DNA from: an uncultured Fibrobacteraceae bacterium
GTDB taxonomy: Bacteria; Krumholzibacteriota; Krumholzibacteriia; LZORAL124-64-63
DNA: 64,000 bases
Assembly (NCBI GenBank): GCA_964461255.1
Contig: CAYWTR010000015.1
Location: 6,983-70,982, forward strand
Direction of reading: 5' to 3'
Made by a program: the position numbers and the translations under genes. The notes beneath the pieces were generated by a model. The model worked only from the letters and a program-made list of their open reading frames with translations. It was not told where the DNA came from and made no database searches. Within the stretch, counting starts at the first letter, position 1, and the number at the start of each line of letters is the position of its first letter. This document shows positions 5,119 to 41,746 of the stretch, in pieces.

Positions 5119-5149
5119 GTGTTTCACGAGCCGTTGGCTGCCCCACGGA

Positions 5150-23502: not shown

Positions 23503-24888
23503 GTGATCCCTCCCAGGAATTCGTTTCAGGTCCTGATGGCGCTTCTTCTGACCGCGCTCGCCCTGCTCGGCTCGGGCTGCAGCGGTCGGGATCCCGCCGG
23601 CCTGGACATGGCGCGCGCGCCGATCGATCCGGTGGTCTTCGACGACGCCTACGGGCCTGACGTCTATTTCCAGGCCTTTGCGGGCACGGATCCCTATGCG
23701 GTGAGCTTCGATTCGGTCTTCGCGCGCGGCGGCGCGAAGTCGCTCAAGATCGCGGTTCCCCCGGAGGGTTCGAACCTGGGCGGCTATGCCGGCGGGGTGC
23801 TGACGTCGGTGGGCTGCCGCGACATCGCCGATTTCAACGCGCTCACGTTCTACGCGCGCTCCAGCATCCCGTCCGCGCTGGACGTCGTCGGCTTCGGCAA
23901 CGACAACACGGGCCGCTCGCTGCACGAGGCCGGCCGCGGGCAAGTGCCCTTGACGACCGCCTGGTCGTTCGTCGTCGTGCCCATCCCCTCGCCTGCGAAG
24001 CTGATTTGCGAGCGCGGGCTGTTCACCTTCGCCGAAGGCCGCGAAACCGGCCGTCCCGAGGGCCACCATGTGTGGATCGACGACATCCGCTACGCCAGGA
24101 TCGAGAGCATCACCAACCCGCGCCCCGTCATGCCGACCGTGCGCAAGCAGTACTTCATCGGCGCGAGCGTCAACCTGTCGGGCACGGCCACGACGTTCAA
24201 CGTTTCCGGTGCCGATGTCGTGGTCAATCACGACCCGGGCTACTTCGACTTCCGCTCCTCTGACCCGTCGGTCGCCATCGTGCAGAGGGGGGCGGTCAGG
24301 GTCGTCGGCGCGGGCGAGGCGGTGATCTCGGCCACGCTGGATGGGATCGACGTCGCCGGCGCGGCGACCGTGAGCGGATTCACCCCGCCGTCCGCGCCCG
24401 CTCCGCGGCCCACCGTGGCCGCCGCCGATGCCATCTCGCTGTTCAGCGACGTCTACCGCGACGTCACGGTCGACAGCTTCAATCCCCGCTGGCAGTACTC
24501 GACGACCGAGGACGCCCGCTACTGGGTCGACGGCGATGAAACCATCATGTACTCGTTCCTCAACTTCGTGGGCATCGACTTCCGCGCCCACACCCTCGAC
24601 GTCAGGGAGATGACGCACTTCCATCTGGATGTCTTCGCCCCCGTGGGGACCAATTTCCGGGTCAAGCTCGTGGCCTTCAACACCGTCAACGGCTACATCA
24701 CCGCGCAATCGGAGCTGACCTTCGACGCGGCCACCACGCCCGCCTTCGCGGCGGGCGCCTGGTCGTCCCTGGAGATCCCCATGGCGGATTTTCAGTTCAC
24801 CGTCCCTCTGGACCACGTCGGCCAGGTCGTGCTCAGCACCAGCGACGCCCAGCTCGTGCTGGTGGACAACCTGTACTGGCACCGGTAG
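23503..24888 (+). CDS. Lipoprotein with Big_2-like Ig domain; first gene of the beta-glucan locus
   Basis: GTG start with AAGGAGG RBS. Lipobox LLGSGCSG. Big_2-like segment (VAIVQRGAVRVVGAGEAVISATLDGID). Confidence 0.5.
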   Translation: MIPPRNSFQVLMALLLTALALLGSGCSGRDPAGLDMARAPIDPVVFDDAYGPDVYFQAFAGTDPYAVSFDSVFARGGAKSLKIAVPPEGSNLGGYAGGVLTSVGCRDIADFNALTFYARSSIPSALDVVGFGNDNTGRSLHEAGRGQVPLTTAWSFVVVPIPSPAKLICERGLFTFAEGRETGRPEGHHVWIDDIRYARIESITNPRPVMPTVRKQYFIGASVNLSGTATTFNVSGADVVVNHDPGYFDFRSSDPSVAIVQRGAVRVVGAGEAVISATLDGIDVAGAATVSGFTPPSAPAPRPTVAAADAISLFSDVYRDVTVDSFNPRWQYSTTEDARYWVDGDETIMYSFLNFVGIDFRAHTLDVREMTHFHLDVFAPVGTNFRVKLVAFNTVNGYITAQSELTFDAATTPAFAAGAWSSLEIPMADFQFTVPLDHVGQVVLSTSDAQLVLVDNLYWHR

Positions 24889-24934
24889 GATGCCGCATTC
24901 GGCGCAGCGCCGTCATCGCGAGGGAACGGATGGG

Positions 24935-26206
24935 ATGAACAACGGCAACCTGCATTGGAAAGGGCTGCGGCGCACCGATCCGGACCGCCCCCGGCCCCTG
25001 GCGGACGCGGTCCTGCGCCTGATCTGGCAGCAGAGACAGATCTCCCGCGCCGACATCGCGCGGCTGGCCGGCCTGTCGCGCTCCACCGTGTCCGAGATCG
25101 TCAGCGAGATCCTTCCGCTGGGCGTCGTCGTCGAGGTCGGCGAGGGCCCGTCCCAGGGCGGCCGCCGCCCCATCGTGCTCGAGTTCCGGGACGACGCCTG
25201 CGTCGTCCTCGGCGTCGAGATGGGCGCCACGCACGTGGTGGTCGTCATGACCGACCTGCGCGGCCGCGTCCTCGCCTGGGAATCCCGGGATCATCCGGTC
25301 CGCGTCGATCCCCACGGCACGCGCCGGCTCGTGGAGGAGATCTGCCGCCGGTGCCTGGCCTCGCCGGAGGCGCAGGGCCGCCCTCTGGTCGGCATGGGCG
25401 TCGCCGTGCCCAGCCCGTTGCACCCCTCCCAGCCCGACCGGCTGTCCGAGATCGTGCTGCCCGCGTGGCAAGGGCGGCTCGGTTTCGGGGAGCTGTCCGA
25501 GCGGCTGGGCGCGCCCTTGATGGTCGACAATGACGCCAATCTGGGGGCCCTGGCCGAGCAGTGGTGGGGCGCGGGGCGTGGCGTCGACGACCTCGCCTAC
25601 ATCAAGGTCGCCACCGGCATCGGCTCCGGACACGTGATCGGGGGCGAGATCTACCGTGGCGCCACCGGCACCGCCGGGGAAATCGGGCACATCTCGATCG
25701 ATCCCCAGGGCAGGCGGTGCATCTGCGGCTTGCAGGGGTGCCTGGTCACGCTGGTGGGCGCGCAGGCGCTCGTCGAGCGCGCCCGCGAGCTCGGCTCCGA
25801 GTTCCCGAGCAGTCCCCTGGCCGGCCGGGAGAACACGATACGCGATCTCGAGGACGCGGCCCTGGCCGGCGACCCTCTGGCGCTGCGGGTGGCCAAGGAG
25901 GCGGCGGAACACCTGGGGCGGGCCGTCGCCGGCCTGATGAACCTGATGAACCCCAGACTGGTGATCGTGGGCGGCGACCTCGGCCGGCTCGGCGACATCC
26001 TGATCGAACCTCTGCGCGAGACCGTCCGCAACCGCACGCTGGTCAGCTCTCTCGCGGCCGCGCAGATCCAGACCAGCGAGCTGGGACCGCTGGCGGTGGC
26101 CATCGGCGCCGCCACCCTGGTGCTGAAGGCGGCGCTCGAGGACTCCAGCCTGTTCCCCCTCGTCGCCTGCGAGGGCCGCGGCGCCCGGCCCAGCCCCGTC
26201 GCATGA
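24935..26206 (+). CDS. ROK-family transcriptional regulator (NagC/XylR-like)
   Basis: N-terminal HTH (ISRADIARLAGLSRSTVSEIVSEIL). ROK sugar-kinase-like fold with DNDANLGALAE and Cys motif CICGLQGCL. Confidence 0.8.
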   Translation: MNNGNLHWKGLRRTDPDRPRPLADAVLRLIWQQRQISRADIARLAGLSRSTVSEIVSEILPLGVVVEVGEGPSQGGRRPIVLEFRDDACVVLGVEMGATHVVVVMTDLRGRVLAWESRDHPVRVDPHGTRRLVEEICRRCLASPEAQGRPLVGMGVAVPSPLHPSQPDRLSEIVLPAWQGRLGFGELSERLGAPLMVDNDANLGALAEQWWGAGRGVDDLAYIKVATGIGSGHVIGGEIYRGATGTAGEIGHISIDPQGRRCICGLQGCLVTLVGAQALVERARELGSEFPSSPLAGRENTIRDLEDAALAGDPLALRVAKEAAEHLGRAVAGLMNLMNPRLVIVGGDLGRLGDILIEPLRETVRNRTLVSSLAAAQIQTSELGPLAVAIGAATLVLKAALEDSSLFPLVACEGRGARPSPVA

Positions 26207-27012
26207 GGCTGGTGCGCGCCGGGATCGCTGTTCTCCTGCTCTGCGTCGGGATGGCGGGCTGCGGCGAGGACGGGCAGCCGGGGGCTTACGGCTTGACCTG
26301 GCAGGATGATTTCGAGGGGCCGGCGGGCCACCCGCCCGATCCCGCGAAGTGGCGGTTCGATATCGGCACGGACTGGGGCAACGGCCAGCTGGAGTACGAC
26401 ACCGATCGTCCCCAGAACGTGAGCCTGGACGGCGCCGGCTGCCTCGCCATCACGGCGCGCGCCGAGGACTTCGGGGGGCGGTCCTACACGTCGGGCCGCA
26501 TCAAGACCGAGGGACTGTTCGCGCAGACCCGGGGACGCTTCGAGGCTCGCATCAAGCTGCCGACCGGGCGAGGTCTCTGGCCCGCCTTCTGGCTGCTCGG
26601 CGCCGACTTCGGCGCCGTCGGCTGGCCCGAGTGCGGCGAGATCGACATCATGGAGTACCGCGGGCAGGATCCCCGGACCATCCACGGCAGCCTGCACGGG
26701 CCGGGGTACTCCGGCGGCGCGGCCATCACCGGCCAGCACACCCTGGCGCAGGGCGGCTTCAACCTCGGCTTCCACACCTTCGCCGTGGAGTGGACCGAGG
26801 CCGCCATCACCTGGTTCGTCGACGGCTACGTTTACCAGACGGTGCGCCCGGCCGACCTGCCGGCCGGCGCGCGGTGGGTCTTCGATCGCCCGTTCTTCAT
26901 CCTGCTCAACCTGGCCGTGGGGGGACGGTGGGTCGGACCACCCGATCAGACCACGGCCCTTCCGCAGACCATGCTCGTCGACTGGGTCCGCGTTTACGGC
27001 GAGCTGCCTTGA
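26203..27012 (+). CDS. Glycoside hydrolase family 16 (laminarinase/beta-1,3-glucanase type), lipoprotein
   Basis: Catalytic motif GEIDIMEY (ExDxxE). Lipobox LLLCVGMAGCG. The start overlaps the ROK stop (ATGA). Confidence 0.8.
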   Translation: MRLVRAGIAVLLLCVGMAGCGEDGQPGAYGLTWQDDFEGPAGHPPDPAKWRFDIGTDWGNGQLEYDTDRPQNVSLDGAGCLAITARAEDFGGRSYTSGRIKTEGLFAQTRGRFEARIKLPTGRGLWPAFWLLGADFGAVGWPECGEIDIMEYRGQDPRTIHGSLHGPGYSGGAAITGQHTLAQGGFNLGFHTFAVEWTEAAITWFVDGYVYQTVRPADLPAGARWVFDRPFFILLNLAVGGRWVGPPDQTTALPQTMLVDWVRVYGELP

Positions 27013-27064: not shown

Positions 27065-30000
27065 TCAGATGGCCAGGTGCAGGTAGGTCCTGATCTCCCA
27101 TTCCCGCCCCTCGGGCAGACCCTCCGGATACAGCTCACCTTCGGCGGGCGCGGGCACGCCAGGCGGCCGGTACCGATTGGAGTGCCTGTCCAGTGTGCGG
27201 TAGGCGAAGCGGACGCCGACGCGCGTCTGCGGTAGGTCGAACCAGCGGGGCCTGCCCAAGGTGTAGGACACGTCGGCCATGGCCTGCAAGGGGTACGTCA
27301 GATTGAAATCGCGATGGTAATCGTAGGGGCCGTAGTCGTTGAACTTCAGGAAACCGGCCACGGCCACCGCGGGCCAGACGATGCGGCTGTCCCAGCCGAA
27401 ACGGCGGACCAGGCGCGTGTCGGCGCCGTTGGGCTCGGCCGTGCCCAGATAGAGGTGGCTGATCATGCGCGCTCGGTCGGTCAGCCGGTTGACCACGCGC
27501 CACTTCATCTCCCACAGGTCGCGAGCCGGGGTGCCGCCCGGGAAGGGGTACACCTGCCCTTCCGCGGAGATGAAAAGGCCCGCGTCGGCGGTGGTCTTGT
27601 GGCGCATGAACTTGAGGTCCGCGCTGAAGGCCAGACGGGCGTCCTCGCGGACGTCGCTGTCCCAGGCCCACATCCACGTGGCTGGCGTCGGATCATAGGT
27701 CACCATGATCTCGGCCGCTGTGGTCTCGCGATTGCCGCGCACCGCGAACGGATCGTCCAGGATGTTGCGCGGCCGGCCGGCCGTGCCCTCCAGCAGCTCG
27801 GGGCGGGGCATGGGCCCGACGATCGGTTTCTGCCACAGGACATTGGGTCCGACCTGCCAGTTGCCCAGCGTGACGGCCACGCCGCTCAGGGCGTTGACCT
27901 GGTTGCCCGATCCGCTGTCCTTCAGCTCCCAGCCGGTGAAGGTGGGAATGGCGGTCGGGCCGGCCTCGGCCACAAGGCCCATGTAGGCGCCCTGTCCGTA
28001 CCAGTTCCACCGCCCCGCTTGCCAGGTCAGCTTGCCCCGGAAGCCGAACGTGTCCTCGTCCTTGATCACATCCTGGCGGACGTCGGCGGGCGACAGCGGG
28101 ATCTCGGCCTTGAGGCGGTCTTCGTCTACCAGTTGGAAAGTCTCGCCGACGCGCGGACGTCCCGACCACAGCACGCCCCCCTCGAACCCGAACGGCCCCA
28201 GCGGCGCCTGCATCTGCAGCGACGCCTTGCGGGTCGACCGCACCGGGATCGCCACGGAACTGCTGAACCGGGTCTGCTGGGCGAAATCCTCCTGGAACAT
28301 GCCCGTCCAGTCGATGCCGCGCCAGGACCGGCTGTACTTGAGGAAGAGCGCGGGATTGGCCCCCCACCAGAGCTGGGGGCCTATGGCGACCTTCAGGCCG
28401 TGCAAGGCCTTCTTGCCGGCCATCTCGAAGCCCACCGGCGCCTCGCCGTTGTAGATGTCGACGTTCTCGCCGTAGTAGGCGTCGCGATAGAGCCCGAAGA
28501 AATCCCCCTCGTACTGCCAGTGCAGGTGGCCGGCGCGGTAGAACCCCTCGAGGTTGAACCAGTGGTCGTTCCAGGAAATCGACGACTGGTACACCTTCAC
28601 CCGCTCCAGCGACTCGATCTCGATGGGGTCGCCGTCGCTCCCCTCGGCCAGGCGCGGGCGGCCCCGGTTCTCGTAGAAGATCTCGTCCAGCGGATTGCGG
28701 GGCACGTGGCCCAGCACGTTCACGGAAAGCCGCGCGATGACGGCTTCGCTGGGCTTGGCCTCGAAATCGGCGTAGAACGACTGTCCGTGATCGAATCCTC
28801 GGTACGAGGGGAAGCCGGCCTGCGGCGTCTCCGCGGGCGGCGTGCTGATGTTCTTGCCGCCCGTGCTGTAGGTCTCGTACTCGAGCCGCAGCCCGGCCAA
28901 CCGCACCTTGCTCAGCGTTTCCGTCCTCAGACTGGCGGCGTCGCCGCGGGCCGCGAGCACGCCGCTCATCGGCGTGATGCGGTCGAAGTGCGCGCGGATA
29001 GCGTCGATGCCGGTGCCCGCGCCGTAAGGATCCAGGAGGAACGCCTCGCGCAGGGCGTAGTAGGCGGCGCGAGGGTAGACATGATAGAGGCCGCGGGAAT
29101 CGGAGAATCCCTTGGCGGTGATGCCCCACCACTCCTCGTTCATGTTGTTCTGGCCCTCGACGTAGTCCTCGGGATAGCCGGCGTTGGGCCACGAGGCGTT
29201 GGTGTCGTGGATGTCGAGGCGGCTCTCCTGTCCGAACTTCCACCACCCGTCGCTCCACTGGAAGATCAGGCCGCCGATCGCGTTGCCCACCCGGCCCTTG
29301 CCGGCCGATTGCTCGTAGATCTCGCGCCACTGGCCGATCAGGTAGCGCGCCTGCGTCGCCTGGTCCTCCTGCATGGTCCGGGCGTTGAACGCGTCCGCGC
29401 CGAACTCGGTGAACATCACGGGCACGCCGAGCTTGTCGTGCACGACCTGGAACAGGTCGCGCGCCGAGATGCCGCGGTAGACGTTCGTTCCGAACACATC
29501 CAGACCCGCGCACTCCTCGGCGATCAGATCGATGTACTGCACGTCGCCGTTGGCGATGGCCACCGGCCGGCGGGAATCGCGCTGTTTGATCTCGGCGATG
29601 ATCTCGCCGAAGAGCGAATAGAGGAATCGCGCCCGCGCCGCGTCGCGCTCGCCCTCGGGCAGCGCCTCGATCTCGAACGACTTCCAGGACAGGCCGTAGT
29701 TGTTCTCGTTGCCCAGCAGCCACATCAACACGCCCGGCGTGTCCCGGTAGCGCTCGACCACCTCCACCAGTTCGGCCCTGAGCAACCGCCGCACGCGGGG
29801 ATCGCTGTAGTCGGTCAGGGGGTGCCAGATCCCATCGATCGTCAGCCCGTAGCGGCCCACGAAGTGGTTGATCACCGAGTGGATGCCATAGCGGCGGTAG
29901 ATGTACTCCACCCAGCGCGGCGGCACGTCCGCGCCCTGGCGGATCGTGTTGACGCCCAGGGTCCTGAGCAGCGACATGTCCCGGTCGAGAGCATCCTTGA

Positions 30001-30259
30001 CGACGTCGTCCGGTTGCGCCCACAGGCTGTAGGTGTAGTTCTGCCCGATCGGCATGTAGTCCCAGTTCATGCCCAGGACCATGAAATCGCGGCCGTCCAC
30101 TTGCAGGCGCGACCCGCTCGCATCGGTCACCACCTCGATTCTCTGCCGCTCGCCTCCCTCCTGGGCCCGGGCCCCGATCGGCAGCGAGACCAGGAGCAGG
30201 ACCCACGCGAGGGTGGCCCAACCACCGTGCCGACGGCTGACATCACGCTTCGTGCACAC
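27065..30259 (-). CDS. Secreted clan GH-A (GH2-like TIM barrel) glycoside hydrolase fused to a large Trp-rich C-terminal beta-domain
   Basis: VLMWLLGNENNYG (acid/base NE) and VMFTEFGAD (nucleophile) resemble GH2 beta-glucuronidase motifs. GTG start at 30259 has an AAGGAG RBS and is followed by a signal peptide. Confidence 0.55.
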   Translation of the reverse strand: MCTKRDVSRRHGGWATLAWVLLLVSLPIGARAQEGGERQRIEVVTDASGSRLQVDGRDFMVLGMNWDYMPIGQNYTYSLWAQPDDVVKDALDRDMSLLRTLGVNTIRQGADVPPRWVEYIYRRYGIHSVINHFVGRYGLTIDGIWHPLTDYSDPRVRRLLRAELVEVVERYRDTPGVLMWLLGNENNYGLSWKSFEIEALPEGERDAARARFLYSLFGEIIAEIKQRDSRRPVAIANGDVQYIDLIAEECAGLDVFGTNVYRGISARDLFQVVHDKLGVPVMFTEFGADAFNARTMQEDQATQARYLIGQWREIYEQSAGKGRVGNAIGGLIFQWSDGWWKFGQESRLDIHDTNASWPNAGYPEDYVEGQNNMNEEWWGITAKGFSDSRGLYHVYPRAAYYALREAFLLDPYGAGTGIDAIRAHFDRITPMSGVLAARGDAASLRTETLSKVRLAGLRLEYETYSTGGKNISTPPAETPQAGFPSYRGFDHGQSFYADFEAKPSEAVIARLSVNVLGHVPRNPLDEIFYENRGRPRLAEGSDGDPIEIESLERVKVYQSSISWNDHWFNLEGFYRAGHLHWQYEGDFFGLYRDAYYGENVDIYNGEAPVGFEMAGKKALHGLKVAIGPQLWWGANPALFLKYSRSWRGIDWTGMFQEDFAQQTRFSSSVAIPVRSTRKASLQMQAPLGPFGFEGGVLWSGRPRVGETFQLVDEDRLKAEIPLSPADVRQDVIKDEDTFGFRGKLTWQAGRWNWYGQGAYMGLVAEAGPTAIPTFTGWELKDSGSGNQVNALSGVAVTLGNWQVGPNVLWQKPIVGPMPRPELLEGTAGRPRNILDDPFAVRGNRETTAAEIMVTYDPTPATWMWAWDSDVREDARLAFSADLKFMRHKTTADAGLFISAEGQVYPFPGGTPARDLWEMKWRVVNRLTDRARMISHLYLGTAEPNGADTRLVRRFGWDSRIVWPAVAVAGFLKFNDYGPYDYHRDFNLTYPLQAMADVSYTLGRPRWFDLPQTRVGVRFAYRTLDRHSNRYRPPGVPAPAEGELYPEGLPEGREWEIRTYLHLAI

Positions 30260-35900: not shown

Positions 35901-36450
35901 GGAGGGCGCGCCCGCCTCGGTCCGCGACGGCCTGAAGGCCGTCTACTTCCGGATCCGCGCCGGTCTGGGCCACGAAAAGACGGTGGCCGAGTACGGCGCC
36001 TTCCCCACCGACCCCCACTCGCACACGCCGCCCGGAGGCGGGGCGCAGCAGCCGGGCATGACCGGGCAGGTGAAGGAAGAGATTCTCACCCGCCTGGGCG
36101 AGCTCGGGGTCTGCGTCGAGAGCGGAACGCTGCGGCTGAGGCCCTGCCTCTTGCGTGAGGACGAGCTGCTCGAGCGGCCCGCCGAGTTCCGGTATTACGA
36201 TGTCGGTGGCCACGCGCGGGCGCTCGCTCTGCCCAGCGGCAGCCTGGCCTTCACCTTCTGCCAGGTGCCGGTGGTCTACGCGCGCGCCGCCGCAGCGGCA
36301 AGCATGAAGATCGTCCGTGCCGACGGGAGCGAAGAGGAACGCCCCGGCGACACGCTCGACGCCCGCTGGAGCGCGGAGCTGTTCGCGCGCAGCGGGGCGA
36401 TCGATCGCATCGAGGTCAAGGTCTCGCCGCACGGCATCGACCCCGTCTAG
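32959..36450 (+). CDS. Large cytoplasmic GH94-like glycoside phosphorylase candidate, possibly a beta-glucan phosphorylase of GH94/GH149/GH161 type
   Basis: 1163 aa with no signal peptide. RPEWNDANNALGG resembles the GH94 general-acid GDWND motif. NWRDIFQNWEAL is typical of (alpha/alpha)6-barrel phosphorylases. Size fits GH149/GH161. Confidence 0.45.
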   Translation: MEGRPAPSPLPAPLGAAPASPAGGLVDFEGEPYYRISAYQRLAPFLVCLASDTDLWMFVSSRGGLTAGRVDPDGSLFPYETVDRLHDAHHHTGPVSVIRFERGASAPATWEPFSETAAQHPASERNLLKNVAGNRLVFEETRHDLKLCFRYSWAACDAFGWVRTAVLENRGPCPVHISLLDGLRNVLPHGAPLALYQQASNLVDAYKKAEADPETGLGIFSLTAGITDRAEALECLTANVAWCCGLERFRVHLSLACLADFRQGRIVAGQHALNGARGNYLVSSRLDLDPGESARWHLVCDAGRDHVQIAALRRRLIAQEDLPARIDAGLRQAAENLRRCVGSADGIQLSGRPETWSHHFANVLFNNMRGGIFWRNHEVPVGDFADFLRTRNAAVAARQERLLGELPAVIASPRLRAIASGSGDADFARLAHEYLPLYFGRRHGDPSRPWNRFAIRVRARDGAQKLHYEGNWRDIFQNWEALCASYPCFLPNVVAKFVNASTVDGFNPYHISRDGIAWETVSPDDPWSNIGYWGDHQIIYLLKLLEALDRYDPAALDRMLAAEIFCYADVPYRIRPYAAILQNPRATIEYDAARAARVARRVAQLGADGKLLGGADGTIHHVNLLEKLLVPALSKLSNLIPGAGIWMNTQRPEWNDANNALGGGGVSVVTLCYLRRYLAFLAVRLQAAGDASLPLSSEVADWFAGVEAALERERGALRAGVYDPRDRKRLMDLLGGAFDAYREAVYARGFSGRKLLPVARVVRLCRTGLAHLDHAIGANQRDDGLYHGYNLLEISADGSRAGLGRLPLMLEGQVAALSSGALTAEQSLAVLERLFASALYRPDQRSFLLYPERSLPGFLAKNVVPDEPAAAIPLLRDMLAAGDSTVLARDIDGVIRFAGHLRNARDLAVLLEDLERRSEWSAAVARDRGAVLDLFEQVFRHRSYTGRSGVMHAYEGLGCIYWHMVAKLLLAAQEAALRAEREGAPASVRDGLKAVYFRIRAGLGHEKTVAEYGAFPTDPHSHTPPGGGAQQPGMTGQVKEEILTRLGELGVCVESGTLRLRPCLLREDELLERPAEFRYYDVGGHARALALPSGSLAFTFCQVPVVYARAAAAASMKIVRADGSEEERPGDTLDARWSAELFARSGAIDRIEVKVSPHGIDPV

Positions 36451-36500: not shown

Positions 36501-38111
36501 ATGAAGCCGATATCCCTCCCGCCGGCGGCCGCTCTCGCCCTGGCCTTCCTCGCTCTGAGCAGCGCAGAGGCCCCGGGGCAATGCATCCTCGCCAATCCCA
36601 GCTTCGAAATCGTCGGTTCGGGAGGAACCGTTTTCGGCGGCTGGTCTCAGTTCGGAGCCATCGGCGCGGTCACGACGGCCGTCCACGGGGCCAGAGCGGC
36701 GCGCGTCAGCGGTCCGAACCAGGGCGGTTGGGATGTCTCGGGTTACTGGCAGCCGCTGGACTGCGTCCCTGGGGAGCGGTGGGCGGTCACGGGCCACGTG
36801 CGCCATCCCGGGAGCAAGCCTCTGACAGGCCAGTGCATCGCCCTGGTCAACCTCGAGTGGCGCGATGCCGGCGGCAACTTGATCAGCTACGATTCCCACA
36901 CCGTCGCCGACGCCTCCACGCCGACGGACACGTACCTGGATTTCTCGTTCGTGAGCGCCGCGGCGCCCGCGGGGACCGTCAAGACGCGGCTCCTGCTCGG
37001 CGTCCTGCAGAGCCCGGCCGATCCGTCGCCTGATGTGCACTTCGACCAGATCACATGCCACAGCACGACGCCGCCGACCATCGACGACATACAGTGGATG
37101 GATTTCCCCGGGGGCACCACTCTCGTCTTCGGCGGCAGGACCTGGCGCGTCAAGGGCCCCGGCTACTACGGTCCCGGCGGCAACCTGTTCAGCAACGCCG
37201 CCAGCAGCGTCTGGGTCGACGCGAGCGCCCGGTTGCACCTGACGCTCAAGAGGATCGGCGGTTCGTGGTACAGCACCGAGGTGGTCGTCGAGCAGCCGCT
37301 GGGCTACGGAGACTACATCGTGACCACCGTCGGCCGACTGGACCAGCTCGATCCCCAGGCGGTGCTGGGCCTGTTCCTGTGGCAGTATGGCGATTGCTGG
37401 GACGAAGGCTACCTGTGGTGGAACGCCTTCAACGAGGTCGATATCGAATACAGCCGCTGGGGCAACCCTGCCGCGGACATCGGGCAGTTCGTCGCCCAGC
37501 CCTATGATTACCCGGGCAACATCCGGCGCTTCGCCGCCACCTTCGGGGACGACGAATTGACCAGCCACGCCATGCGTTGGCTGCCCGATCGCGTCGAGTA
37601 CCGCGTCTGGCGCGGCGGGCCCGGCGACGAATCGCCGGCGACCACGGTCAGCGCCTGGACCTACGCCGGCCCGCACATCCCACGCCCCGAGCAGCCCCGA
37701 CTGCACCTGAACCTGTGGAAGCTCGGCGGCACGCCGGCCGCGGACCAGGAAGTGATCTTCCAGAACTTCACCTTCGTTCCGGAGGGTCTGACCGCCGTGG
37801 CGGCGCAGCAGAGCCCCGCCTCTCCCGCGACCCCGGCCGGCCGTCTGCACCCGGCGGCGCCGAATCCGTTCAATCCCTCGACCACGGCCCGCTTCGATCT
37901 GATCCGCGGCGGCCGCTTTCGGCTTGCGGTCTACGACTTGGGGGGAGGCATCGTGCGGACTCTCGCCAGCGGCGACCTGCCCGCCGGCAGCCATTCGGCC
38001 AGGTGGGACGGGCGGGACGACCATGGCCGCCCTCTGCCCTCGGGAGTGTACATCCTGCGGTTGCAAGGCAGCGATTTCAGCGACAGCCGGCCGGTCGTGC
38101 TGACGAAGTGA
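36501..38111 (+). CDS. Secreted CBM4/9-like plus GH16-like (concanavalin-type) beta-glucanase with T9SS-type C-terminal sorting domain
   Basis: Signal peptide. N-terminal ANPSFE...GWSQ CBM-like module. NEVDIEYSRWG (ExDxE). C-terminus NPFNPSTTARFDL...GVYILRL...RPVVLTK. Confidence 0.55.
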   Translation: MKPISLPPAAALALAFLALSSAEAPGQCILANPSFEIVGSGGTVFGGWSQFGAIGAVTTAVHGARAARVSGPNQGGWDVSGYWQPLDCVPGERWAVTGHVRHPGSKPLTGQCIALVNLEWRDAGGNLISYDSHTVADASTPTDTYLDFSFVSAAAPAGTVKTRLLLGVLQSPADPSPDVHFDQITCHSTTPPTIDDIQWMDFPGGTTLVFGGRTWRVKGPGYYGPGGNLFSNAASSVWVDASARLHLTLKRIGGSWYSTEVVVEQPLGYGDYIVTTVGRLDQLDPQAVLGLFLWQYGDCWDEGYLWWNAFNEVDIEYSRWGNPAADIGQFVAQPYDYPGNIRRFAATFGDDELTSHAMRWLPDRVEYRVWRGGPGDESPATTVSAWTYAGPHIPRPEQPRLHLNLWKLGGTPAADQEVIFQNFTFVPEGLTAVAAQQSPASPATPAGRLHPAAPNPFNPSTTARFDLIRGGRFRLAVYDLGGGIVRTLASGDLPAGSHSARWDGRDDHGRPLPSGVYILRLQGSDFSDSRPVVLTK

Positions 38112-38218: not shown

Positions 38219-38926
38219 TCAGCGGAACAGCGACTTCACGCCGCCCCAGGAGCTTTCCTCGCTCGGCACCGGTGTGCCGGTGTAGAACTGCACGTCGTCG
38301 TAGAAGACGCCCGACGGCTCGTACAGCCGCGCGTGGCTGACGAATCCGAATTGCAGGATCTGGCCCACGAGGCCAGCGTCGATCGTGATCGTCAACGTGT
38401 GCGCCGACCAGGTCGTGGGGATGGTCGTCATGTCGGCGGTGATGTAGTTGGTCATGGCGTAGCCGGCGCCGGGATCCAGGGTCTTGATGAAGGCCGCGGC
38501 GGTCGTGCTCCCGGCCAGGTTGCCGAGCTTGGCCTGGAAGCTGTAGGTCCAGGTCTCGCCGACATCTTCAGCGGTGACGATTTGCTCCTGGAAGACGTTG
38601 GACTCGATGATGCCGTCGGCGTGGTTGCCGTTGTTGTAATCGCTGTAGACGGACAGGCATTGCCCGCCGATGCCTTCGCCGGCGACGATCGCGCAGAACG
38701 CGGCGCCATCGTTGGGGGCCGGGAACGGGCCGTAGCCGTACCACCAACCCCAGTCGTACCCGAAGACGTTGCCGTACACCAGCCAGCCGTCGCCGAGCAA
38801 CCCGCCCGGCGATGGCAGAGGCAGGCTCTCGAAGTCCTGCCCATAGGGCGCCAGCGCCTGGCTCGCCGCGGGCAGCAGGCAGACCAGCATGGCGGCCCCG
38901 AGGATGGAAGCGGTTCGTGCACGCAT
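38219..38926 (-). CDS. Secreted paralog of the 31882 protein, ending in the short SWGGVKSLFR tail instead of a T9SS domain
   Basis: Signal peptide MRARTASILGAAMLVCLLPAASQALA. The core is about 65% identical to 31882-32856. C-terminus ...TGTPVPSEESSWGGVKSLFR. Confidence 0.6.
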   Translation of the reverse strand: MRARTASILGAAMLVCLLPAASQALAPYGQDFESLPLPSPGGLLGDGWLVYGNVFGYDWGWWYGYGPFPAPNDGAAFCAIVAGEGIGGQCLSVYSDYNNGNHADGIIESNVFQEQIVTAEDVGETWTYSFQAKLGNLAGSTTAAAFIKTLDPGAGYAMTNYITADMTTIPTTWSAHTLTITIDAGLVGQILQFGFVSHARLYEPSGVFYDDVQFYTGTPVPSEESSWGGVKSLFR

Positions 38927-39039
38927 CTCTCGACCTTTCTGCGAGGGGTTCCCGCTTGCTCTCGGAACGCCCGAAACGATCGCGGTCCGGTTGGCAAGTC
39001 GCTCCAAAGTTGATTCTCTGTCGTATATCATAGACTATG

Positions 39040-39099
39040 TTCGGTCACCGAATCAAGTCAAAAATGCCGCTTGACCGGATTCGGATCCGGAGATACTTT
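39040..39099. promoter_or_regulatory. Divergent control region with nested inverted repeats: TTCGGTCACCGAA (39040-39052) and CCGAATCAAGTCAA/TTGACCGGATTCGG (39048-39084), overlapping a TTGACC-N17-TACTTT promoter
   Basis: Palindromes read directly. They share the TTCGG-N3-CCGAA half-site arrangement with the operator at 31738-31752. Confidence 0.4.
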
Positions 39100-39174
39100 G
39101 TTCGGGTTTCGTACAAAGAAATTCTCCTCAGCGGGCGATCCTCCGAACCTGGAGGCGGCAAACGAGATGGCACG

Positions 39175-40665
39175 GTGAGCGCCGCCGCGCAGTCCATCAC
39201 GGCCCCCGAGGACCGCATCAAGCTGACCCACAAGCTCGCCTACGGGGCGGGAGCGTTCGTCAACAATCTGCTGGCCGCCGCCAGCGGCGGCATGATGATC
39301 GTCCTGAACCTCGGGCTGGGACTCAACCCGGCTACCGTGGGCCTGCTCGGCGCGCTGCCGCGTTTGACCGACGCGATCACCGACCCCCTCATGGGTTTCA
39401 TTTCCGACCAGACCCGCAGCAAGTGGGGACGACGGCGACCGTACATCTTCGGCGGCGCCATCGCCGCGGGGTTGATCTTCGCGCTGCTGTGGCAGCTCCC
39501 CCGCGGCCAGAGCGAGACCTTCTATTTCGTCTACTTCCTCGTCGGCTCGATTCTCTTCTATGCGGGCTACACGGTCTTCGCCACGCCGTGGGTGGCGCTG
39601 GGCTACGAGCTGACGCCCGACTACAACGAGCGCACGCGCTTGATGGGCGCCCAGAACTTCATCGGTCAGCTTGCCTATGTCGCCTCTCCCTGGTTCCTCT
39701 GGATCATGACCTACGAGGGGTTCTTCCCCGATCAGGTGGCGGGGGCGGCGGCACTGGCGATCGTCGTCGCGCTGGTGGCCGCCGGTCTGGGGATCGTGCC
39801 GGCGATCTTCCTGCGCGAACGCATGCAAAACATCGCCGCGGCCGGAGTGGCGGCCGCCAAGCAGCGCGCGACGACGAGGGACAGTGGTGGCCTTGCCCGC
39901 AACATCAAGGCATTCAGCCGGGGCTTCGGCGTCACGCTCTCCTCCGGCCCCTTCCTCAAGCTCTGTCTGGCGACTTTCCTCGTTTTCAATGGCTTCATGC
40001 TCATATCATCGTTCCAGTACTATGTGATCATCTACTACGTGTGCGGCGGCGTGCAGGTCACCGGCGCCAAGTACGCTGGATACGCGGGGACGGTGGGAGG
40101 CCTCAGCACCTTCGCCGTCGTCGCGTTCGTCGCCTGGCTCGCCACGCGGATCGGCAAGCGTCGCGCCTTCTTCTTCTCCACCGGGGTGTCCATCGTCGGC
40201 TACGCGCTCAAGTGGATCTGCTACAACCCGTCCTACCCGTTGCTGTCCGTCCTGCCGGCGCCTCTGCTGGCTTTCAGCCTGGGCGGTCTGTTCACGCTCA
40301 TGCCGTCAATGGTCGCCGACGTCGTGGACACGGACGAACTCAAGACCCACCAGCGCCGCGAGGGGATGTTCGGGTCGATCTTCTGGTTCATGGTGAAGCT
40401 CGGTATGTCCGCCGCCCTGGCCGGCGGCGGCTATCTGCTCAACGCGACCGGCTTCGACGTGGCGCTGGGAGGGGAGCAGTCCGGCCGGACGATCATGCTG
40501 ATGCGGCTCTGCGACGCGGGCATTCCCATCCTGACCTCGATCATCGCCATCTGGGCGGTGGCGACCTTCCCCATCACCGAAAAGAGAGCCAATGAGGTCC
40601 GCAGGGAGCTGGAGCGCCGCCGGGGCAGGCCAGAGGCCGCGCTGGCATCACCAGCCGAGCCCTAG
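39175..40665 (+). CDS. MFS transporter, glycoside-pentoside-hexuronide (GPH):cation symporter family
   Basis: GPH signature DQTRSKWGRRRPYIFGG and 12 predicted TM segments. Start is uncertain: GTG at 39175 was chosen, while the ORF opens at 39037 inside the regulatory palindromes. Confidence 0.7.
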   Translation: MSAAAQSITAPEDRIKLTHKLAYGAGAFVNNLLAAASGGMMIVLNLGLGLNPATVGLLGALPRLTDAITDPLMGFISDQTRSKWGRRRPYIFGGAIAAGLIFALLWQLPRGQSETFYFVYFLVGSILFYAGYTVFATPWVALGYELTPDYNERTRLMGAQNFIGQLAYVASPWFLWIMTYEGFFPDQVAGAAALAIVVALVAAGLGIVPAIFLRERMQNIAAAGVAAAKQRATTRDSGGLARNIKAFSRGFGVTLSSGPFLKLCLATFLVFNGFMLISSFQYYVIIYYVCGGVQVTGAKYAGYAGTVGGLSTFAVVAFVAWLATRIGKRRAFFFSTGVSIVGYALKWICYNPSYPLLSVLPAPLLAFSLGGLFTLMPSMVADVVDTDELKTHQRREGMFGSIFWFMVKLGMSAALAGGGYLLNATGFDVALGGEQSGRTIMLMRLCDAGIPILTSIIAIWAVATFPITEKRANEVRRELERRRGRPEAALASPAEP

Positions 40666-40699
40666 AGCGGTCGGGACCCAGCGCCGCAGCGTCCCGGCG

Positions 40700-41746
40700 A
40701 TGCCGCGCCTCCGGCGCGTCGCGCCGGCGGCCGCCCTGCTCGCCCTCACCTGCCTGGCGGCGGGCTGCGCGGGCGGGCGAGACAGCCCCTCTTCCTCCCC
40801 GGAGGCCGCCATGGTCATCCGCCCTTTCCACGCCGGCAGCGCGGAACGCTGGCTCGGCAACGCCATCTGTTACGGCCCCCACCGCGACGGCCAGCACCCG
40901 GGCGGCCCCGCCCCCTCCGCCGCGCAGGTGCGCGAGGATCTGCGCTTGATGTCGCCCCGCTGGAGCCTGCTGCGCCTCTACGGATCGGCCGAGGTCGCCC
41001 CGACCGTCCTGTCGGTGATCCGTGCGGACAGCCTGGACATGAAGGTGATGCTCGGGGCGTGGATCGCCGTCGAGGAGGAACGCGACGATCGCGGCGCCGT
41101 CGTGGCGAGACATCCCGAAGAGGCCACCGCCAATCGGCGGGAGGTCGACGCCGCGATTCTTCTGGCGAACGACTATGCCGACATCGTGGTCGCCGTCTGC
41201 GTGGGCAACGAAACCCAGGTCTCCTGGTCGCCCCATCGCAGCCCGCTCGCTGTCCTGATCGGGCATCTGCGGCGCGTGCGGGCGGGCGTGTCGGTGCCGG
41301 TCACATCGGCCGACGACTTCCAGTACTGGCTCCTACCCGAAAGCCGAGCGCTGGCCCGCGAGGTCGACTTCATCACGCTCCACGCCCATCCCATGTGGAA
41401 CGGCCGGCAACTGGCGGAGGCACTGCCCTGGCTGCAGGACCAGGTCGCCGCCGTGCAGGCCGTCCACCCCGGGGCGACCATGGTGCTCGGCGAAACGGGC
41501 TGGGCGACCTCCGTCTCCGCGGCGGGCGAGCAGGCGGCGCTGATCAAGGGACGCCCGGGAGAGGCGGAGCAGGAGATCTACTATCGCGCCGTCGTCTCCT
41601 GGATCGAGGCGGTGCGGCTGACCTGCTTCTTCTTCGAAGCCTTCGACGAGAACTGGAAGGGCGGCCCGGATCCGGCGGAGGTCGAGAAGCACTGGGGCCT
41701 GTTTCGCGCCGATCGCTCGCCGAAGCTCGCTCTGTTGCCGCGTTAG
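40700..41746 (+). CDS. Glycoside hydrolase family 17-like beta-1,3-glucanase/transglycosylase, lipoprotein
   Basis: Lipobox LTCLAAGCAG. Catalytic motifs VGNE (proton donor) and GETGWAT (nucleophile), characteristic of GH17. Confidence 0.65.
   Translation: MPRLRRVAPAAALLALTCLAAGCAGGRDSPSSSPEAAMVIRPFHAGSAERWLGNAICYGPHRDGQHPGGPAPSAAQVREDLRLMSPRWSLLRLYGSAEVAPTVLSVIRADSLDMKVMLGAWIAVEEERDDRGAVVARHPEEATANRREVDAAILLANDYADIVVAVCVGNETQVSWSPHRSPLAVLIGHLRRVRAGVSVPVTSADDFQYWLLPESRALAREVDFITLHAHPMWNGRQLAEALPWLQDQVAAVQAVHPGATMVLGETGWATSVSAAGEQAALIKGRPGEAEQEIYYRAVVSWIEAVRLTCFFFEAFDENWKGGPDPAEVEKHWGLFRADRSPKLALLPR

What the first reader, a model, noticed from the sequence alone, without database searches (positions are those of the whole stretch)
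23503..41746. Laminarin-type beta-glucan utilisation locus built from T9SS-exported enzymes instead of SusC/D
The locus holds a lipoprotein, ROK regulator, GH16, GH2-like GH-A enzyme, GH1, a GH94-like phosphorylase, a CBM+GH16-like enzyme, a GPH symporter and GH17 within 18 kb. It is the functional equivalent of a Bacteroidetes laminarin polysaccharide utilisation locus. It has no TonB-dependent transporter pair, and it includes a cytoplasmic phosphorylase for energy-conserving cleavage of imported oligosaccharides. Cellodextrin or mixed-linkage glucan remain alternative substrates.
Basis: partly seen in the sequence, partly recalled or inferred. Interest (0 to 1): 0.6.

Follow-up and report, generated by a model that had tools for sequence, protein, structure and literature searches.

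The report
SusC/D-free beta-1,3-glucan utilisation regulon
A high-GC, uncultured bacterium related to Krumholzibacteria carries a co-regulated gene cluster for eating beta-1,3-glucans such as laminarin that lacks the usual Bacteroidetes SusC/SusD uptake pair and instead has a glucanase predicted to be fused to an outer-membrane barrel.

Summary
The gene cluster is real and its beta-1,3-glucan reading is well supported.

**Enzyme identities**
- The "GH94-like" phosphorylase is a full-length GH149 beta-1,3-glucan phosphorylase.
- The GH16 groups with solved endo-beta-1,3-glucanases. GH17, GH1, the ROK regulator and the GPH symporter are confirmed.
- No SusC/SusD or TonB-dependent receptor is present in the 64 kb.

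- "Built from T9SS-exported enzymes" is mostly wrong. GH16, GH17 and the 461-aa protein are lipoproteins.
- Only two proteins in the locus carry a FlgD-Ig/T9SS-like C-terminal domain. One of them has a GH16-like fold with an invariant ExDxE.

- The "GH2-like" protein is predicted to be a GH158/GH157-like TIM barrel fused to a roughly 22-24-strand outer-membrane beta-barrel. That barrel family has no Pfam model.
- A 23-bp palindrome sits in every promoter region of the locus. It occurs nowhere else in the window and is conserved in six related MAG loci.

**Comparison with known loci**
- The same core occurs in Bacteroidota laminarin PULs next to SusC/D: barrel-glucanase, lipoprotein, GH16, GH149, GH17, transporter.

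**Verdict**
- This is a new variant of a known kind. The barrel fusion is the most interesting lead.

The parts
23419..23441 (.). Operator-like palindrome 1 (CTTTGATCGGTTTCCGCACAAAG), about 95 bp upstream of the lipoprotein-ROK-GH16 operon.
   Evidence: An equivalent site lies upstream of the lipoprotein gene in L004.
23503..24888 (+). 461-aa lipoprotein (lipobox LLGSGC). It has an N-terminal domain, a Big_2-like stretch and a C-terminal ~150-aa module that is repeated 1-4 times in Bacteroidota orthologues. Putative surface glycan-binding protein.
   Evidence: No Pfam, NCBIfam or PDB hit. Orthologue follows the barrel-glucanase gene in 23 of the 80 loci fetched (29 including partial matches). 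Gene call confirmed.
24935..26206 (+). ROK-family transcription regulator with an N-terminal winged helix-turn-helix (423 aa).
   Evidence: PF00480 at 177 bits, plus HTH hits at aa 40-78. Gene call.
26203..27012 (+). GH16 endo-beta-1,3-glucanase (laminarinase type). Lipoprotein with lipobox GMAGC and catalytic motif EIDIME. Overlaps the ROK stop by 4 nt.
   Evidence: PF00722 at 88.5 bits. Best PDB relatives are 2HYK, 3ATG, 3AZX and 2VY0, at 228-265 bits, all beta-1,3-glucanases or laminarinases. Sequence read.
28913..30259 (-). Signal peptide plus N-terminal GH-A (beta/alpha)8 catalytic domain of the 1064-aa protein (aa 1-449). GH157/GH158-like, with invariant E185 (GNEN) and E285 (TEFG).
27065..28912 (-). 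C-terminal ~615 residues of the same protein: predicted outer-membrane beta-barrel of about 22-24 strands (includes the stop codon).
30243..31646 (-). GH1 beta-glucosidase, 467 aa, no signal peptide. First gene of the GH1 to barrel-glucanase operon (17-nt overlap).
   Evidence: PF00232 at 502 bits. Gene call.
31734..31756 (.). Operator-like palindrome 2 (CTTTGTTCGGACTCCGAACATAG), in the divergent GH1 / 324-aa-protein intergenic region.
   Evidence: Conserved at the same place in L001, L002, L004 and L009.
31882..32856 (+). 324-aa secreted protein: unknown ~200-aa domain plus a FlgD_ig / T9SS-like C-terminal domain.
   Evidence: PF13860 at 39 bits. TIGR04183 at 20.7 bits, below the cut-off of 23. 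No PDB relative by profile search.
32959..36450 (+). GH149 beta-1,3-glucan phosphorylase, 1163 aa. No signal peptide, so cytoplasmic.
   Evidence: NF058639 at 1436.8 bits against a cut-off of 1150. PDB 6HQ6 at 1045.7 bits over residues 24-1155.
36501..38111 (+). 536-aa secreted protein: N-terminal beta-sandwich (CBM-like), then a GH16-like jelly roll with invariant E312-x-D314-x-E316, then a FlgD_ig C-terminal domain.
   Evidence: AF2 model. Best Foldseek matches are GH16 enzymes, TM 0.55-0.65. hhalign against GH16 gives P 0.003, with the motif in register. Invariant residues. No GH16 Pfam hit.
38219..38926 (-). 235-aa secreted paralogue of the 324-aa protein. It lacks the C-terminal domain and ends in WGGVKSLFR.
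39035..39057 (.). Operator-like palindrome 3 (CTATGTTCGGTCACCGAATCAAG).
   Evidence: Conserved in L002 and L004.
39096..39118 (.). Operator-like palindrome 4 (CTTTGTTCGGGTTTCGTACAAAG).
   Evidence: Conserved in L002 and L004.
39175..40665 (+). GPH/MFS_2 sugar:cation symporter. The likely start is the GTG at 39175, because the longer ORF from 39037 would run across both operators.
   Evidence: PF13347 at 207 bits. TIGR00792 at 171 bits. The start is inferred from the operator positions and the length of homologues.
40700..41746 (+). GH17 beta-1,3-glucanase, lipoprotein (lipobox LAAGC).
   Evidence: PF00332 at 33.7 bits against a cut-off of 28.2. PDB 6FCG, the Formosa endo-laminarinase, at 99 bits. 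Sequence read.

Best explanation
This is a co-regulated beta-1,3-glucan (laminarin-type) utilisation regulon. The host is an uncultured, ~70% GC bacterium of the FCB group whose closest relatives are Krumholzibacteria and Eisenbacteria MAGs.

**Proposed pathway**
1. Cell envelope. A GH16 laminarinase lipoprotein cuts the glucan to oligosaccharides. It is helped by a secreted GH16-like protein with a T9SS-like tail, a putative glycan-binding lipoprotein, and two small secreted proteins of unknown fold.
2. Outer membrane. The oligosaccharides cross through the barrel of a GH158-like glucanase::beta-barrel fusion protein. This step is inferred, with roughly 40% confidence.
3. Periplasm. A GH17 lipoprotein, and possibly the GH158-like domain, trim the oligosaccharides.
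4. Inner membrane. A GPH cation symporter imports them.
5. Cytoplasm. GH149 phosphorolyses them to glucose-1-phosphate, which saves ATP. GH1 hydrolyses the remaining short oligosaccharides.

**Regulation**
The locus-encoded ROK regulator is proposed to bind a 23-bp palindrome, CTTTGTTCGG-N3-CCGAACAAAG, present upstream of all five transcription units.

**What is shown and what is inferred**
- Shown in silico: family identities, export signals, synteny, the operator motif, and the predicted barrel fold.
- Inferred: the cellular location of each step, the channel role of the barrel, which regulator binds the motif, and the inducer.
For: **Family assignments**
- GH149 equivalog above cut-off, with a full-length match to 6HQ6.
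- GH16 is closest to solved endo-beta-1,3-glucanases.
- GH17 matches the Formosa laminarinase 6FCG.
- GH1, ROK and MFS_2 are confirmed.

**The GH-A protein**
- The catalytic domain is closest in fold to GH157/GH158 beta-1,3-glucanases.
- The C-terminal half matches TonB-dependent-transporter and porin barrels.
- The strands are amphipathic.
- Stand-alone homologues have signal peptides and a terminal Phe.
- One stand-alone homologue heads an SBP_bac_5 ABC transporter / LacI / GH16 cluster in a TARA scaffold.

**Synteny**
- The same core order is found in ~25 Bacteroidota loci: barrel-glucanase, lipoprotein, GH16, GH149, GH17, transporter. In Polaribacter it sits downstream of SusD.
- Published laminarin-induced PULs of Formosa and Muricauda contain the same families (PMC6246565, PMC13188888, bioRxiv 10.64898/2026.01.10.698779).
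- The SusC/D-less version is conserved in six MAG loci from 41% to 70% GC.

**Regulation**
- The operator motif has 4 of 4 window hits in locus promoters, against 0.00 expected.
- It is conserved at orthologous positions in L001-L005 and L009.

**Absence of SusC/D**
- No TonB_dep_Rec, Plug or SusD hit in any long coding-like ORF scanned in the window.
Against: - There are no expression, growth or enzyme data for this organism.
- The barrel comes from an AlphaFold model of moderate confidence (mean pLDDT 75, pTM 0.55). Its orientation, pore state and the side of the membrane on which the catalytic domain sits are unknown.
- The same fusion protein also occurs in Bacteroidota PULs that do have SusC/D. 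It is therefore not simply a replacement for them.
- A TonB-dependent transporter could be encoded elsewhere in the genome. Only 64 kb was seen.
- The GH158 relationship is weak at sequence level (profile E 1.7e-3).
- The lipoprotein and the 324/235-aa proteins have no detectable homologue of known function.
- The T9SS assignment of the C-terminal domains is borderline.
Confidence: 0.8

Rival explanations
1. The barrel is not an uptake channel. It is a membrane anchor that displays or holds the GH158-like glucanase at the outer membrane, in the manner of an autotransporter. Oligosaccharides would enter through a general porin or a TonB-dependent transporter encoded elsewhere.
For: - The same fusion sits in Bacteroidota PULs that already have SusC/D.
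- Catalytic-domain-only versions exist next to GH149 in L014, L030, L045, L046, L063 and L078.
- A long helix (aa 430-448) precedes the first strand, as in autotransporter linkers.
- Only 64 kb of the genome was seen.
Against: - A 22-24-strand barrel is far larger than needed for anchoring.
- Stand-alone barrels with no enzyme domain exist. One is the first gene of an ABC-importer / LacI / GH16 cluster.
- No TonB-dependent receptor was found in the 23 kb of the fully syntenic locus L004; the flanks of the other five syntenic loci were not scanned.
Confidence: 0.35
2. The natural substrate is a beta-1,3-glucan other than algal laminarin, for example fungal or oomycete wall glucan, curdlan or callose. 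Many close relatives come from soil or sediment metagenomes.
For: - The nearest loci are from terrestrial and sediment MAG projects, including the MFD isolates.
- GH30_1, the beta-1,6 debranching enzyme typical of marine laminarin PULs (L070; PMC13188888), is absent here. GH1 is present instead.
Against: - The enzyme set cannot distinguish among soluble beta-1,3-glucans.
- The core is orthologous to loci shown to be induced by laminarin in Formosa (PMC6246565).
Confidence: 0.4
3. The locus targets cellodextrins or mixed-linkage (beta-1,3-1,4) glucan rather than beta-1,3-glucan.
For: - GH1 and GPH are not linkage-specific.
- The top NCBIfam hit of the GH16 is the 1,3-1,4-glycanase EglC, far below its cut-off.
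- The 536-aa protein has a lichenase-style ExDxE motif.
Against: - GH149 scores above its equivalog cut-off. Characterised members are beta-1,3-specific (PMC5827456).
- Characterised GH17 enzymes act on beta-1,3-glucans (my own knowledge of the family, not checked here); its solved matches here are an endo-laminarinase and a beta-1,3-glucanosyltransferase.
- The GH16 is closest to solved laminarinases at 228-265 bits.
- There is no GH5, GH9 or GH94.
Confidence: 0.07
4. The genes are merely neighbours and have no common regulation or pathway.
For: The genes lie on both strands in five transcription units.
Against: - A shared 23-bp palindrome lies upstream of every unit and nowhere else in the 64 kb. 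It is conserved across MAGs with 41-70% GC.
- Synteny is conserved across phyla.
Confidence: 0.03

Closest known systems
Laminarin PULs of marine Bacteroidota (Formosa, Polaribacter, Muricauda/Flagellimonas, Christiangramia). Sources: PMC6246565, PMC13188888, bioRxiv 10.64898/2026.01.10.698779.
   Same: - Orthologous core genes at 27-54% identity: barrel-glucanase (annotated GH2 or GH158 there), lipoprotein, GH16, GH149, GH17 and an MFS/GPH transporter.
- The same substrate logic.
   Different: - No SusC/SusD.
- A ROK regulator with its own operator instead of the LuxR-type BguR.
- GH1 instead of GH30_1/GH3.
- Additional secreted proteins with a FlgD_ig-type C-terminal domain.
- The genes are split into five divergent or convergent units.
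GH149 gene-cluster types I-III of Kuhaudomlarp et al. 2018 (PMC5827456).
   Same: GH149 is clustered with a sugar transporter, other glycoside hydrolases and a regulator.
   Different: - Type I uses an ABC transporter with LacI or AraC.
- Type II uses a TonB-dependent receptor.
- Type III is the Bacteroidetes PUL.
- This locus fits none of them: GPH, ROK and the barrel-glucanase fusion, in FCB candidate phyla.
GH158 and GH157 endo-beta-1,3-glucanases (BuGH158 6PAL, GH158(Pro) 9ORO, LaGH157 9FZ9).
   Same: - Best structural matches of the N-terminal TIM barrel.
- A retaining GH-A glutamate pair is conserved.
   Different: - Only 13-22% identity, and borderline by sequence profile.
- The solved chains are 399-527 residues long. 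Here the catalytic domain is followed by a ~615-residue outer-membrane barrel.
TonB-dependent transporters / SusC and sugar porins (FhuA, PfeA, BtuB, AlgE, MOMP).
   Same: Fold similarity of the C-terminal half to 18-22-strand outer-membrane barrels.
   Different: - No Plug or TonB_dep_Rec Pfam hit on this protein.
- None of the six barrel-family members without a GH2_C hit (five of 588-883 aa) matched any Pfam model.
- An enzyme domain is fused at the N-terminus.

Membership tests
Polysaccharide utilisation locus in the strict sense (PULDB definition) | Adjacent susC-like (TonB-dependent) and susD-like gene pair. | tested here: not met
   No TonB_dep_Rec, Plug or SusD Pfam hit in the 27 long coding-like ORFs of the window that were scanned. 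The Polaribacter locus L070 does show SusD upstream of the same core.
Polysaccharide utilisation locus in the strict sense (PULDB definition) | Clustered CAZymes, a transporter and a regulator for one glycan. | tested here: met
   for the families. A shared operator is shown.
GH149 beta-1,3-glucan phosphorylase | Score above the curated equivalog cut-off, and a full-length match to a characterised member. | tested here: met
   NF058639 at 1436.8 bits against 1150. 6HQ6 (Pro_7066) at 1045.7 bits over residues 24-1155.
GH149 beta-1,3-glucan phosphorylase | Phosphorolytic activity on beta-1,3-gluco-oligosaccharides. | not testable with these tools
   Needs a recombinant enzyme assay.
   No Pfam family at E <= 0.01. 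There is only a local E ~1e-10 match over ~170 residues to GH161 and a chain labelled cellobiose phosphorylase.
GH16 (269-aa lipoprotein) | Family HMM above cut-off, an ExDxxE catalytic motif, and nearest characterised relatives active on beta-1,3-glucan. | tested here: met
   PF00722 at 88.5 bits against 22. EIDIME motif. 2HYK, 3ATG, 3AZX and 2VY0 at 228-265 bits.
GH16 (536-aa protein with C-terminal domain) | Family HMM hit. | tested here: not met
   No PF00722 hit. No GH16 hit with a profile against PDB.
GH16 (536-aa protein with C-terminal domain) | Beta-jelly-roll fold with the catalytic Glu-Asp-Glu triad on one strand. | tested here: inconclusive
   Best Foldseek matches are GH16 enzymes, with probability 1.0 and TM 0.55-0.65. 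Invariant E312, D314 and E316 align on the GH16 motif with hhalign P 0.003. Identity is only 12-18%.
GH17 | Family HMM above cut-off, and a match to a characterised laminarinase. | tested here: met
   PF00332 at 33.7 bits against 28.2, a partial match. 6FCG at 99 bits and 4WTP at 53.6 bits.
GH158 (N-terminal domain of the 1064-aa protein) | Significant sequence similarity to GH158 members. | tested here: inconclusive
   Profile against 9ORO gives E 1.7e-3, and against 6PAL E 0.015. Pfam reports only a weak Glyco_hydro_2_C hit (24.4 bits against 21). dbCAN was not available.
GH158 (N-terminal domain of the 1064-aa protein) | GH-A TIM-barrel fold closest to GH158/GH157, with a conserved acid/base and nucleophile Glu. 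| tested here: met
GH2 | N-terminal sugar-binding and Ig-like domains preceding the TIM barrel. | tested here: not met
   Only the TIM-barrel model hits, and weakly. The catalytic domain starts about 40 residues after the signal peptide.
TonB-dependent transporter / SusC | Plug domain, TonB box and TonB_dep_Rec barrel signature. | tested here: not met
   No Pfam hit in the barrel half of this protein or in the six barrel-family members without a GH domain that were scanned. There is fold resemblance only.
Outer-membrane beta-barrel protein (BAM substrate) | Signal peptide, amphipathic antiparallel strands closing a barrel, and a C-terminal hydrophobic or aromatic beta-signal. | tested here: met
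   Signal peptide. About 24 long strands. Dyad hydrophobicity. The protein ends in YLHLAI. Stand-alone homologues end in F or W. All of this rests on a model, not an experiment.
T9SS type A cargo | C-terminal sorting domain scoring above the TIGR04183 or PF18962 cut-off. | tested here: inconclusive
   324-aa protein: TIGR04183 at 20.7 bits, below 23. 536-aa protein: no TIGR04183 hit. Flanking 1202-aa BNR protein: 27.6 bits, above 23. All three pass Pfam FlgD_ig. NCBI names one homologue a 'T9SS type A sorting domain-containing protein'.
T9SS type A cargo | T9SS machinery (PorU/V, SprA, GldK-N) encoded in the genome. | not testable with these tools
   None is in the 64-kb window. The rest of the genome was not available. 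No literature was found.
ROK transcription regulators | ROK sugar-binding domain plus an N-terminal DNA-binding HTH. | tested here: met
   PF00480 at 177 bits. HTH_IclR, HTH_24 and MarR hits at aa 40-78.
GPH cation symporters | Family HMM. | tested here: met
   PF13347 (MFS_2) at 207 bits against 27. TIGR00792 at 171 bits is below its subfamily cut-off of 231.

The most novel reading that the evidence does not exclude
The GH158-like glucanase::beta-barrel fusion, with its partner lipoprotein, is a previously unrecognised, TonB-independent outer-membrane device. It couples cleavage of beta-1,3-glucan to passage of the products through its own barrel.

In FCB lineages without SusC/D it would be the main uptake route. 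In marine Bacteroidota it would work alongside SusC/D in their laminarin PULs, which are induced by laminarin in culture (PMC6246565).
Probability: 0.25. Interest if true: 0.8.

Novelty: new variant of a known kind. Interest (0 to 1): 0.55.

Why it matters
Laminarin and related beta-1,3-glucans are among the largest pools of labile carbon. Their bacterial use is understood almost entirely through the SusC/D paradigm of Bacteroidota.

- This locus shows that the same enzymatic core (GH16, GH17, GH149, GH158-like) has been assembled without SusC/D in uncultured FCB phyla (Krumholzibacteriota, Eisenbacteria, a Fibrobacteraceae MAG). It comes with a different regulator and a recognisable operator.
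- The protein routinely annotated as 'GH2', 'GH158' or 'glycosidase' is predicted to carry a large outer-membrane barrel from a family with no Pfam model. The family has more than 5,500 homologues, and orthologues sit in the Bacteroidota laminarin loci fetched here.
- If the barrel is a channel, it would add a new mode of glycan uptake. Models of laminarin turnover would need to include it.
- The operator motif allows regulon prediction in these uncultured lineages.

Tried and rejected
**Searches that found nothing**
- PDB sequence searches for the lipoprotein (single sequence; profile of its C-terminal module) and for the 324/235-aa domain (profile). Their binding function is inferred from context only.
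- A profile of the 536-aa protein against PDB gave only the FlgD-like tail. The GH16 relationship appeared only by fold and hhalign.
- hhalign gave no relationship between the lipoprotein and the 324-aa family or the CBM-like domain of the 536-aa protein.
- Literature searches for laminarin or T9SS in Eisenbacteria or Krumholzibacteria returned nothing. The GH158 papers do not mention a barrel.

**Naming the source organism**
- Exact look-ups found the proteins on a 98-kb NCBI contig and several Logan assemblies, but without names.

**Contexts of stand-alone barrels**
- L085, L088 and L089 were too short or uninformative.
- L086 looks like a frameshifted fusion rather than a true split gene, because it has no signal peptide and the ORFs overlap. 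I did not use it as Rosetta-stone evidence.
- L090 shows a barrel followed by an unrelated lipoprotein.

**Considered and rejected**
- The flanking 1202-aa BNR/sortilin protein is not part of the locus. It is not conserved next to the locus elsewhere; only its C-terminal domain matches.

Full report
**1. What is there**

The window is ~70% GC, so long spurious ORFs are common. I chose reading frames by third-position GC. I then confirmed them against independent gene calls on identical public contigs. Between 23503 and 41746 there are eleven genes in five transcription units:

- Unit 1 (+): a 461-aa lipoprotein, a ROK regulator (423 aa) and a GH16 (269 aa). ROK and GH16 overlap by 4 nt.
- Unit 2 (-): GH1 (467 aa) and a 1064-aa GH-A protein. 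They overlap by 17 nt.
- Unit 3 (+): a 324-aa secreted protein, a 1163-aa phosphorylase and a 536-aa secreted protein.
- Unit 4 (-): a 235-aa paralogue of the 324-aa protein.
- Unit 5 (+): a GPH symporter and GH17.

Pfam confirms ROK, GH16, GH1, MFS_2 and GH17. It gives a weak Glyco_hydro_2_C hit on the large protein and FlgD_ig domains at the C-termini of the 324- and 536-aa proteins.

**2. Enzyme identities and substrate**

- **Phosphorylase.** It has no Pfam hit. It matches the solved GH149 beta-1,3-oligosaccharide phosphorylase Pro_7066 (6HQ6) over its full length at 1046 bits. It also exceeds the curated cut-off of the NCBIfam equivalog 'GH149 1,3-beta-D-glucan phosphorylase' (1436.8 against 1150). 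It is not GH94 proper.
- **GH16.** It carries the EIDIME motif. Its nearest solved relatives are all endo-beta-1,3-glucanases or laminarinases: 2HYK, 3ATG, 3AZX and 2VY0, at 228-265 bits.
- **GH17.** It matches the Formosa endo-laminarinase 6FCG.

GH149 and GH17 are beta-1,3-specific families as characterised (PMC5827456). The cellodextrin and mixed-linkage alternatives are therefore unlikely. The set cannot tell algal laminarin from other soluble beta-1,3-glucans. The lack of a GH30_1 debranching enzyme, which is present in marine PULs (PMC13188888), and the soil or sediment origin of many relatives leave that open.

**3. Export routes**

Reading the N-termini gives the following:

- The 461-aa protein (LLGSGC), GH16 (GMAGC) and GH17 (LAAGC) have lipoboxes.
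- The 1064-aa, 324-aa, 536-aa and 235-aa proteins have ordinary signal peptides.
- GH1, GH149 and ROK have none.

Only the 324- and 536-aa proteins carry the FlgD_ig-type C-terminal domain. Against the T9SS type A model TIGR04183 the 324-aa protein scores 20.7 bits (cut-off 23), and the 536-aa protein does not appear. The neighbouring 1202-aa BNR protein scores 27.6. NCBI names one homologue a T9SS type A sorting-domain protein. T9SS export is plausible for two proteins but is not established. The claim that the locus is 'built from T9SS-exported enzymes' does not hold.

The 536-aa protein is the one candidate T9SS enzyme:

- Its AlphaFold model (mean pLDDT 76.6) has a middle domain whose best PDB matches are GH16 enzymes (TM 0.55-0.65).
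- hhalign against a GH16 alignment gives P 0.003.
- The invariant E312-V-D314-I-E316 aligns on the GH16 catalytic strand.
- No GH16 HMM detects it. It is a distant GH16-like protein whose activity is untested.

**4. The 'GH2-like' protein is a glucanase fused to an outer-membrane barrel**

The protein has more than 5,500 homologues, mostly unnamed or annotated as 'glycosidase' or hypothetical protein. An AlphaFold model built on 42 homologues (mean pLDDT 75, pTM 0.55) shows two parts. Residues ~40-450 form a (beta/alpha)8 barrel. Residues ~450-1064 form about 24 long antiparallel strands.

- **Catalytic half.**
  - Foldseek puts GH158 first at E ~2e-12.
  - At sequence level the relationship is weak: profile E 1.7e-3 to 9ORO and 9e-6 to a GH2.
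  - The GNEN and TEFG glutamates are invariant.
- **C-terminal half.**
  - It also matches MOMP, PfeA, PirA, BtuB, OprC, FepA and AlgE at E ~1e-8 to 1e-7.
  - Its strands show alternating hydrophobicity. It has no cysteines and ends in YLHLAI.

An exhaustive search with the barrel half alone found only 447 clusters in 1.84 billion representatives. Most are ~1000-1100-aa fusions. Some are 570-660-aa proteins with their own signal peptide and a terminal Phe, namely P0329, P0330 and P0345. Six of ten barrel-family members scanned (588-883 aa) have no Pfam family; the other four showed only Glyco_hydro_2_C, one also CBM_4_9. One stand-alone barrel is the first gene of a cluster in a TARA scaffold that also holds an SBP_bac_5 ABC transporter, LacI and GH16. 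That resembles the type I GH149 clusters (PMC5827456).

Catalytic-domain-only versions also exist next to GH149, in L014, L030, L045, L046, L063 and L078. The two halves are therefore independent modules that are usually fused.

I found no paper describing the barrel. The Muricauda paper calls the orthologue 'GH2'. Recent marine work lists GH158 in the same PULs. The GH158 structure paper does not mention a barrel.

**5. Comparison with other loci**

A scan of species-representative genomes with the GH149 protein returned 80 loci. The best matches (55-61% identity) are from Krumholzibacteriota and Eisenbacteria MAGs (one an unclassified MAG), and a Fibrobacteraceae MAG matches at 50%.

- **Syntenic relatives.** L001, L002, L003, L005, L009 and especially L004 (41% GC) share the gene set. 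No TonB-dependent receptor was found in the 23 kb of L004, which has no unassigned ORF of 180 aa or more; the flanks of the other five loci were not scanned for protein families.
- **Bacteroidota.** About 25 loci have the same core order: barrel-glucanase, lipoprotein, GH16, GH149, GH17, transporter. The barrel protein is 43-51% identical. In Polaribacter L070 this core lies directly downstream of SusD and a PKD protein, and is followed by GH30 and a second GH17.

The window therefore holds the Bacteroidota laminarin core without SusC/D. It has a ROK regulator in place of the LuxR-type BguR, GH1 in place of GH30/GH3, and extra secreted proteins. Because the fusion protein coexists with SusC/D in Bacteroidota, it cannot simply be called their replacement.

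**6. Regulation**

The three divergent or upstream promoter regions share a 23-bp palindrome, CTTTGTTCGG-N3-CCGAACAAAG. With up to three mismatches it occurs four times in the 64 kb, against 0.00 expected. All four sites are in locus promoters:

- 23419, upstream of the lipoprotein-ROK-GH16 unit.
- 31734, between GH1 and the 324-aa gene.
- 39035 and 39096, between the 235-aa gene and GPH.

The motif recurs at the orthologous positions in L001-L005 and L009, including the 41% GC locus. It is absent from all but one (L058, a single 4-mismatch match) of the Bacteroidota loci. This is a phylogenetic footprint of a common operator. The locus-encoded ROK repressor, which has an N-terminal HTH, is the obvious candidate, and it would also autoregulate. 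The operators imply that the GPH start is the GTG at 39175 rather than the ATG at 39037.

**7. Mechanism proposed**

- Envelope: GH16 (lipoprotein) and the GH16-like 536-aa protein cut the polymer. The 461-aa lipoprotein and the 324/235-aa proteins probably bind it, which I infer from context only.
- Outer membrane: oligosaccharides pass through the barrel of the fusion protein. This is inferred, with ~40% confidence.
- Periplasm: the GH17 lipoprotein, and perhaps the GH158-like domain, shorten them.
- Inner membrane: GPH imports them.
- Cytoplasm: GH149 yields glucose-1-phosphate, and GH1 clears laminaribiose.

The main rival for the outer-membrane step is that the barrel only anchors or displays the enzyme, with uptake through a porin or a TonB-dependent transporter encoded elsewhere.

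**8. Verdict**

- Correct: the substrate class, the homology to laminarin PULs, the absence of SusC/D and the energy-conserving phosphorylase.
- Wrong or imprecise: the T9SS emphasis, the GH94 label and the GH2 label.

The locus is a new variant of a known kind. What raises its interest above routine is the predicted glucanase::outer-membrane-barrel fusion, which is widespread and apparently undescribed, together with the conserved operator.

Noticed in passing
window 38219-38926 (-); L004 15187-15897 (-) and 3103-3747 (-); L006 (Planctomycetota homologue): The 235-aa paralogue ends in ...SWGGVKSLFR. Two proteins of the Fibrobacteraceae MAG locus end in ...MGEVKMLFR and ...DWGEVKALFR. The Planctomycetota homologue of the same domain ends in a PEP-CTERM signal, and the 324-aa paralogue ends in a FlgD_ig domain. 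The short W-G-x-V-K-x-L-F-R tail may be an unrecognised C-terminal sorting tag that is interchangeable with these.
   Followed up: partly
window 19521-23048 (-): A 1202-aa secreted protein with Sortilin/BNR (Asp-box) repeats, a sub-threshold match to 'F510_1955 family glycosylhydrolase', and a C-terminal domain above the T9SS type A cut-off. It is divergent from the locus but is not conserved beside it in related loci.
   Followed up: partly
P0375 (1218 aa), P0259 (1351 aa), from the barrel-only search: Variants of the fusion carry extra N-terminal modules. P0375 has CBM_4_9, the GH-A domain and the barrel. This suggests a modular family of barrel-linked glycosidases.
   Followed up: no
L087 (TARA scaffold) 56-8849: A stand-alone barrel homologue (597 aa, with signal peptide and terminal F) is followed by an SBP_bac_5 ABC transporter cassette, LacI and GH16. 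This is an outer-membrane barrel at the head of a proteobacterial-type beta-glucan uptake cluster.
   Followed up: partly
window 41782-44562 (-): A 926-aa fusion of the CoA-binding and ATP-grasp domains of an ADP-forming acyl-CoA synthetase with a C-terminal GNAT acetyltransferase (Pat-like protein acetyltransferase architecture). It lies immediately downstream of the locus on the opposite strand.
   Followed up: no
window 53005-56685 (-) and 51756-52727 (-), 62357-63961 (-): A 1226-aa TPR-CHAT protein, a 323-aa protein with a PPC (pre-peptidase C-terminal) domain, and another 534-aa protein with a FlgD_ig / Por_Secre_tail-like C-terminus. FlgD_ig-type tails are frequent in this genome, with 4 in 64 kb.
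   Followed up: no
window 1-5100: This region has lower GC (60-66%) than the rest of the window. It encodes a Nitro_FeMo-Co/DUF1847 protein and a PAS sigma-54 activator. Further on are two CbiA/ParA-like 4Fe-4S ATPases (13660-15542).
   Followed up: no
window 6520-8547 (-) and 50354-51595 (-): Coding-like ORFs of 675 aa and 413 aa with no Pfam family at E <= 0.01 or 0.001.
   Followed up: no
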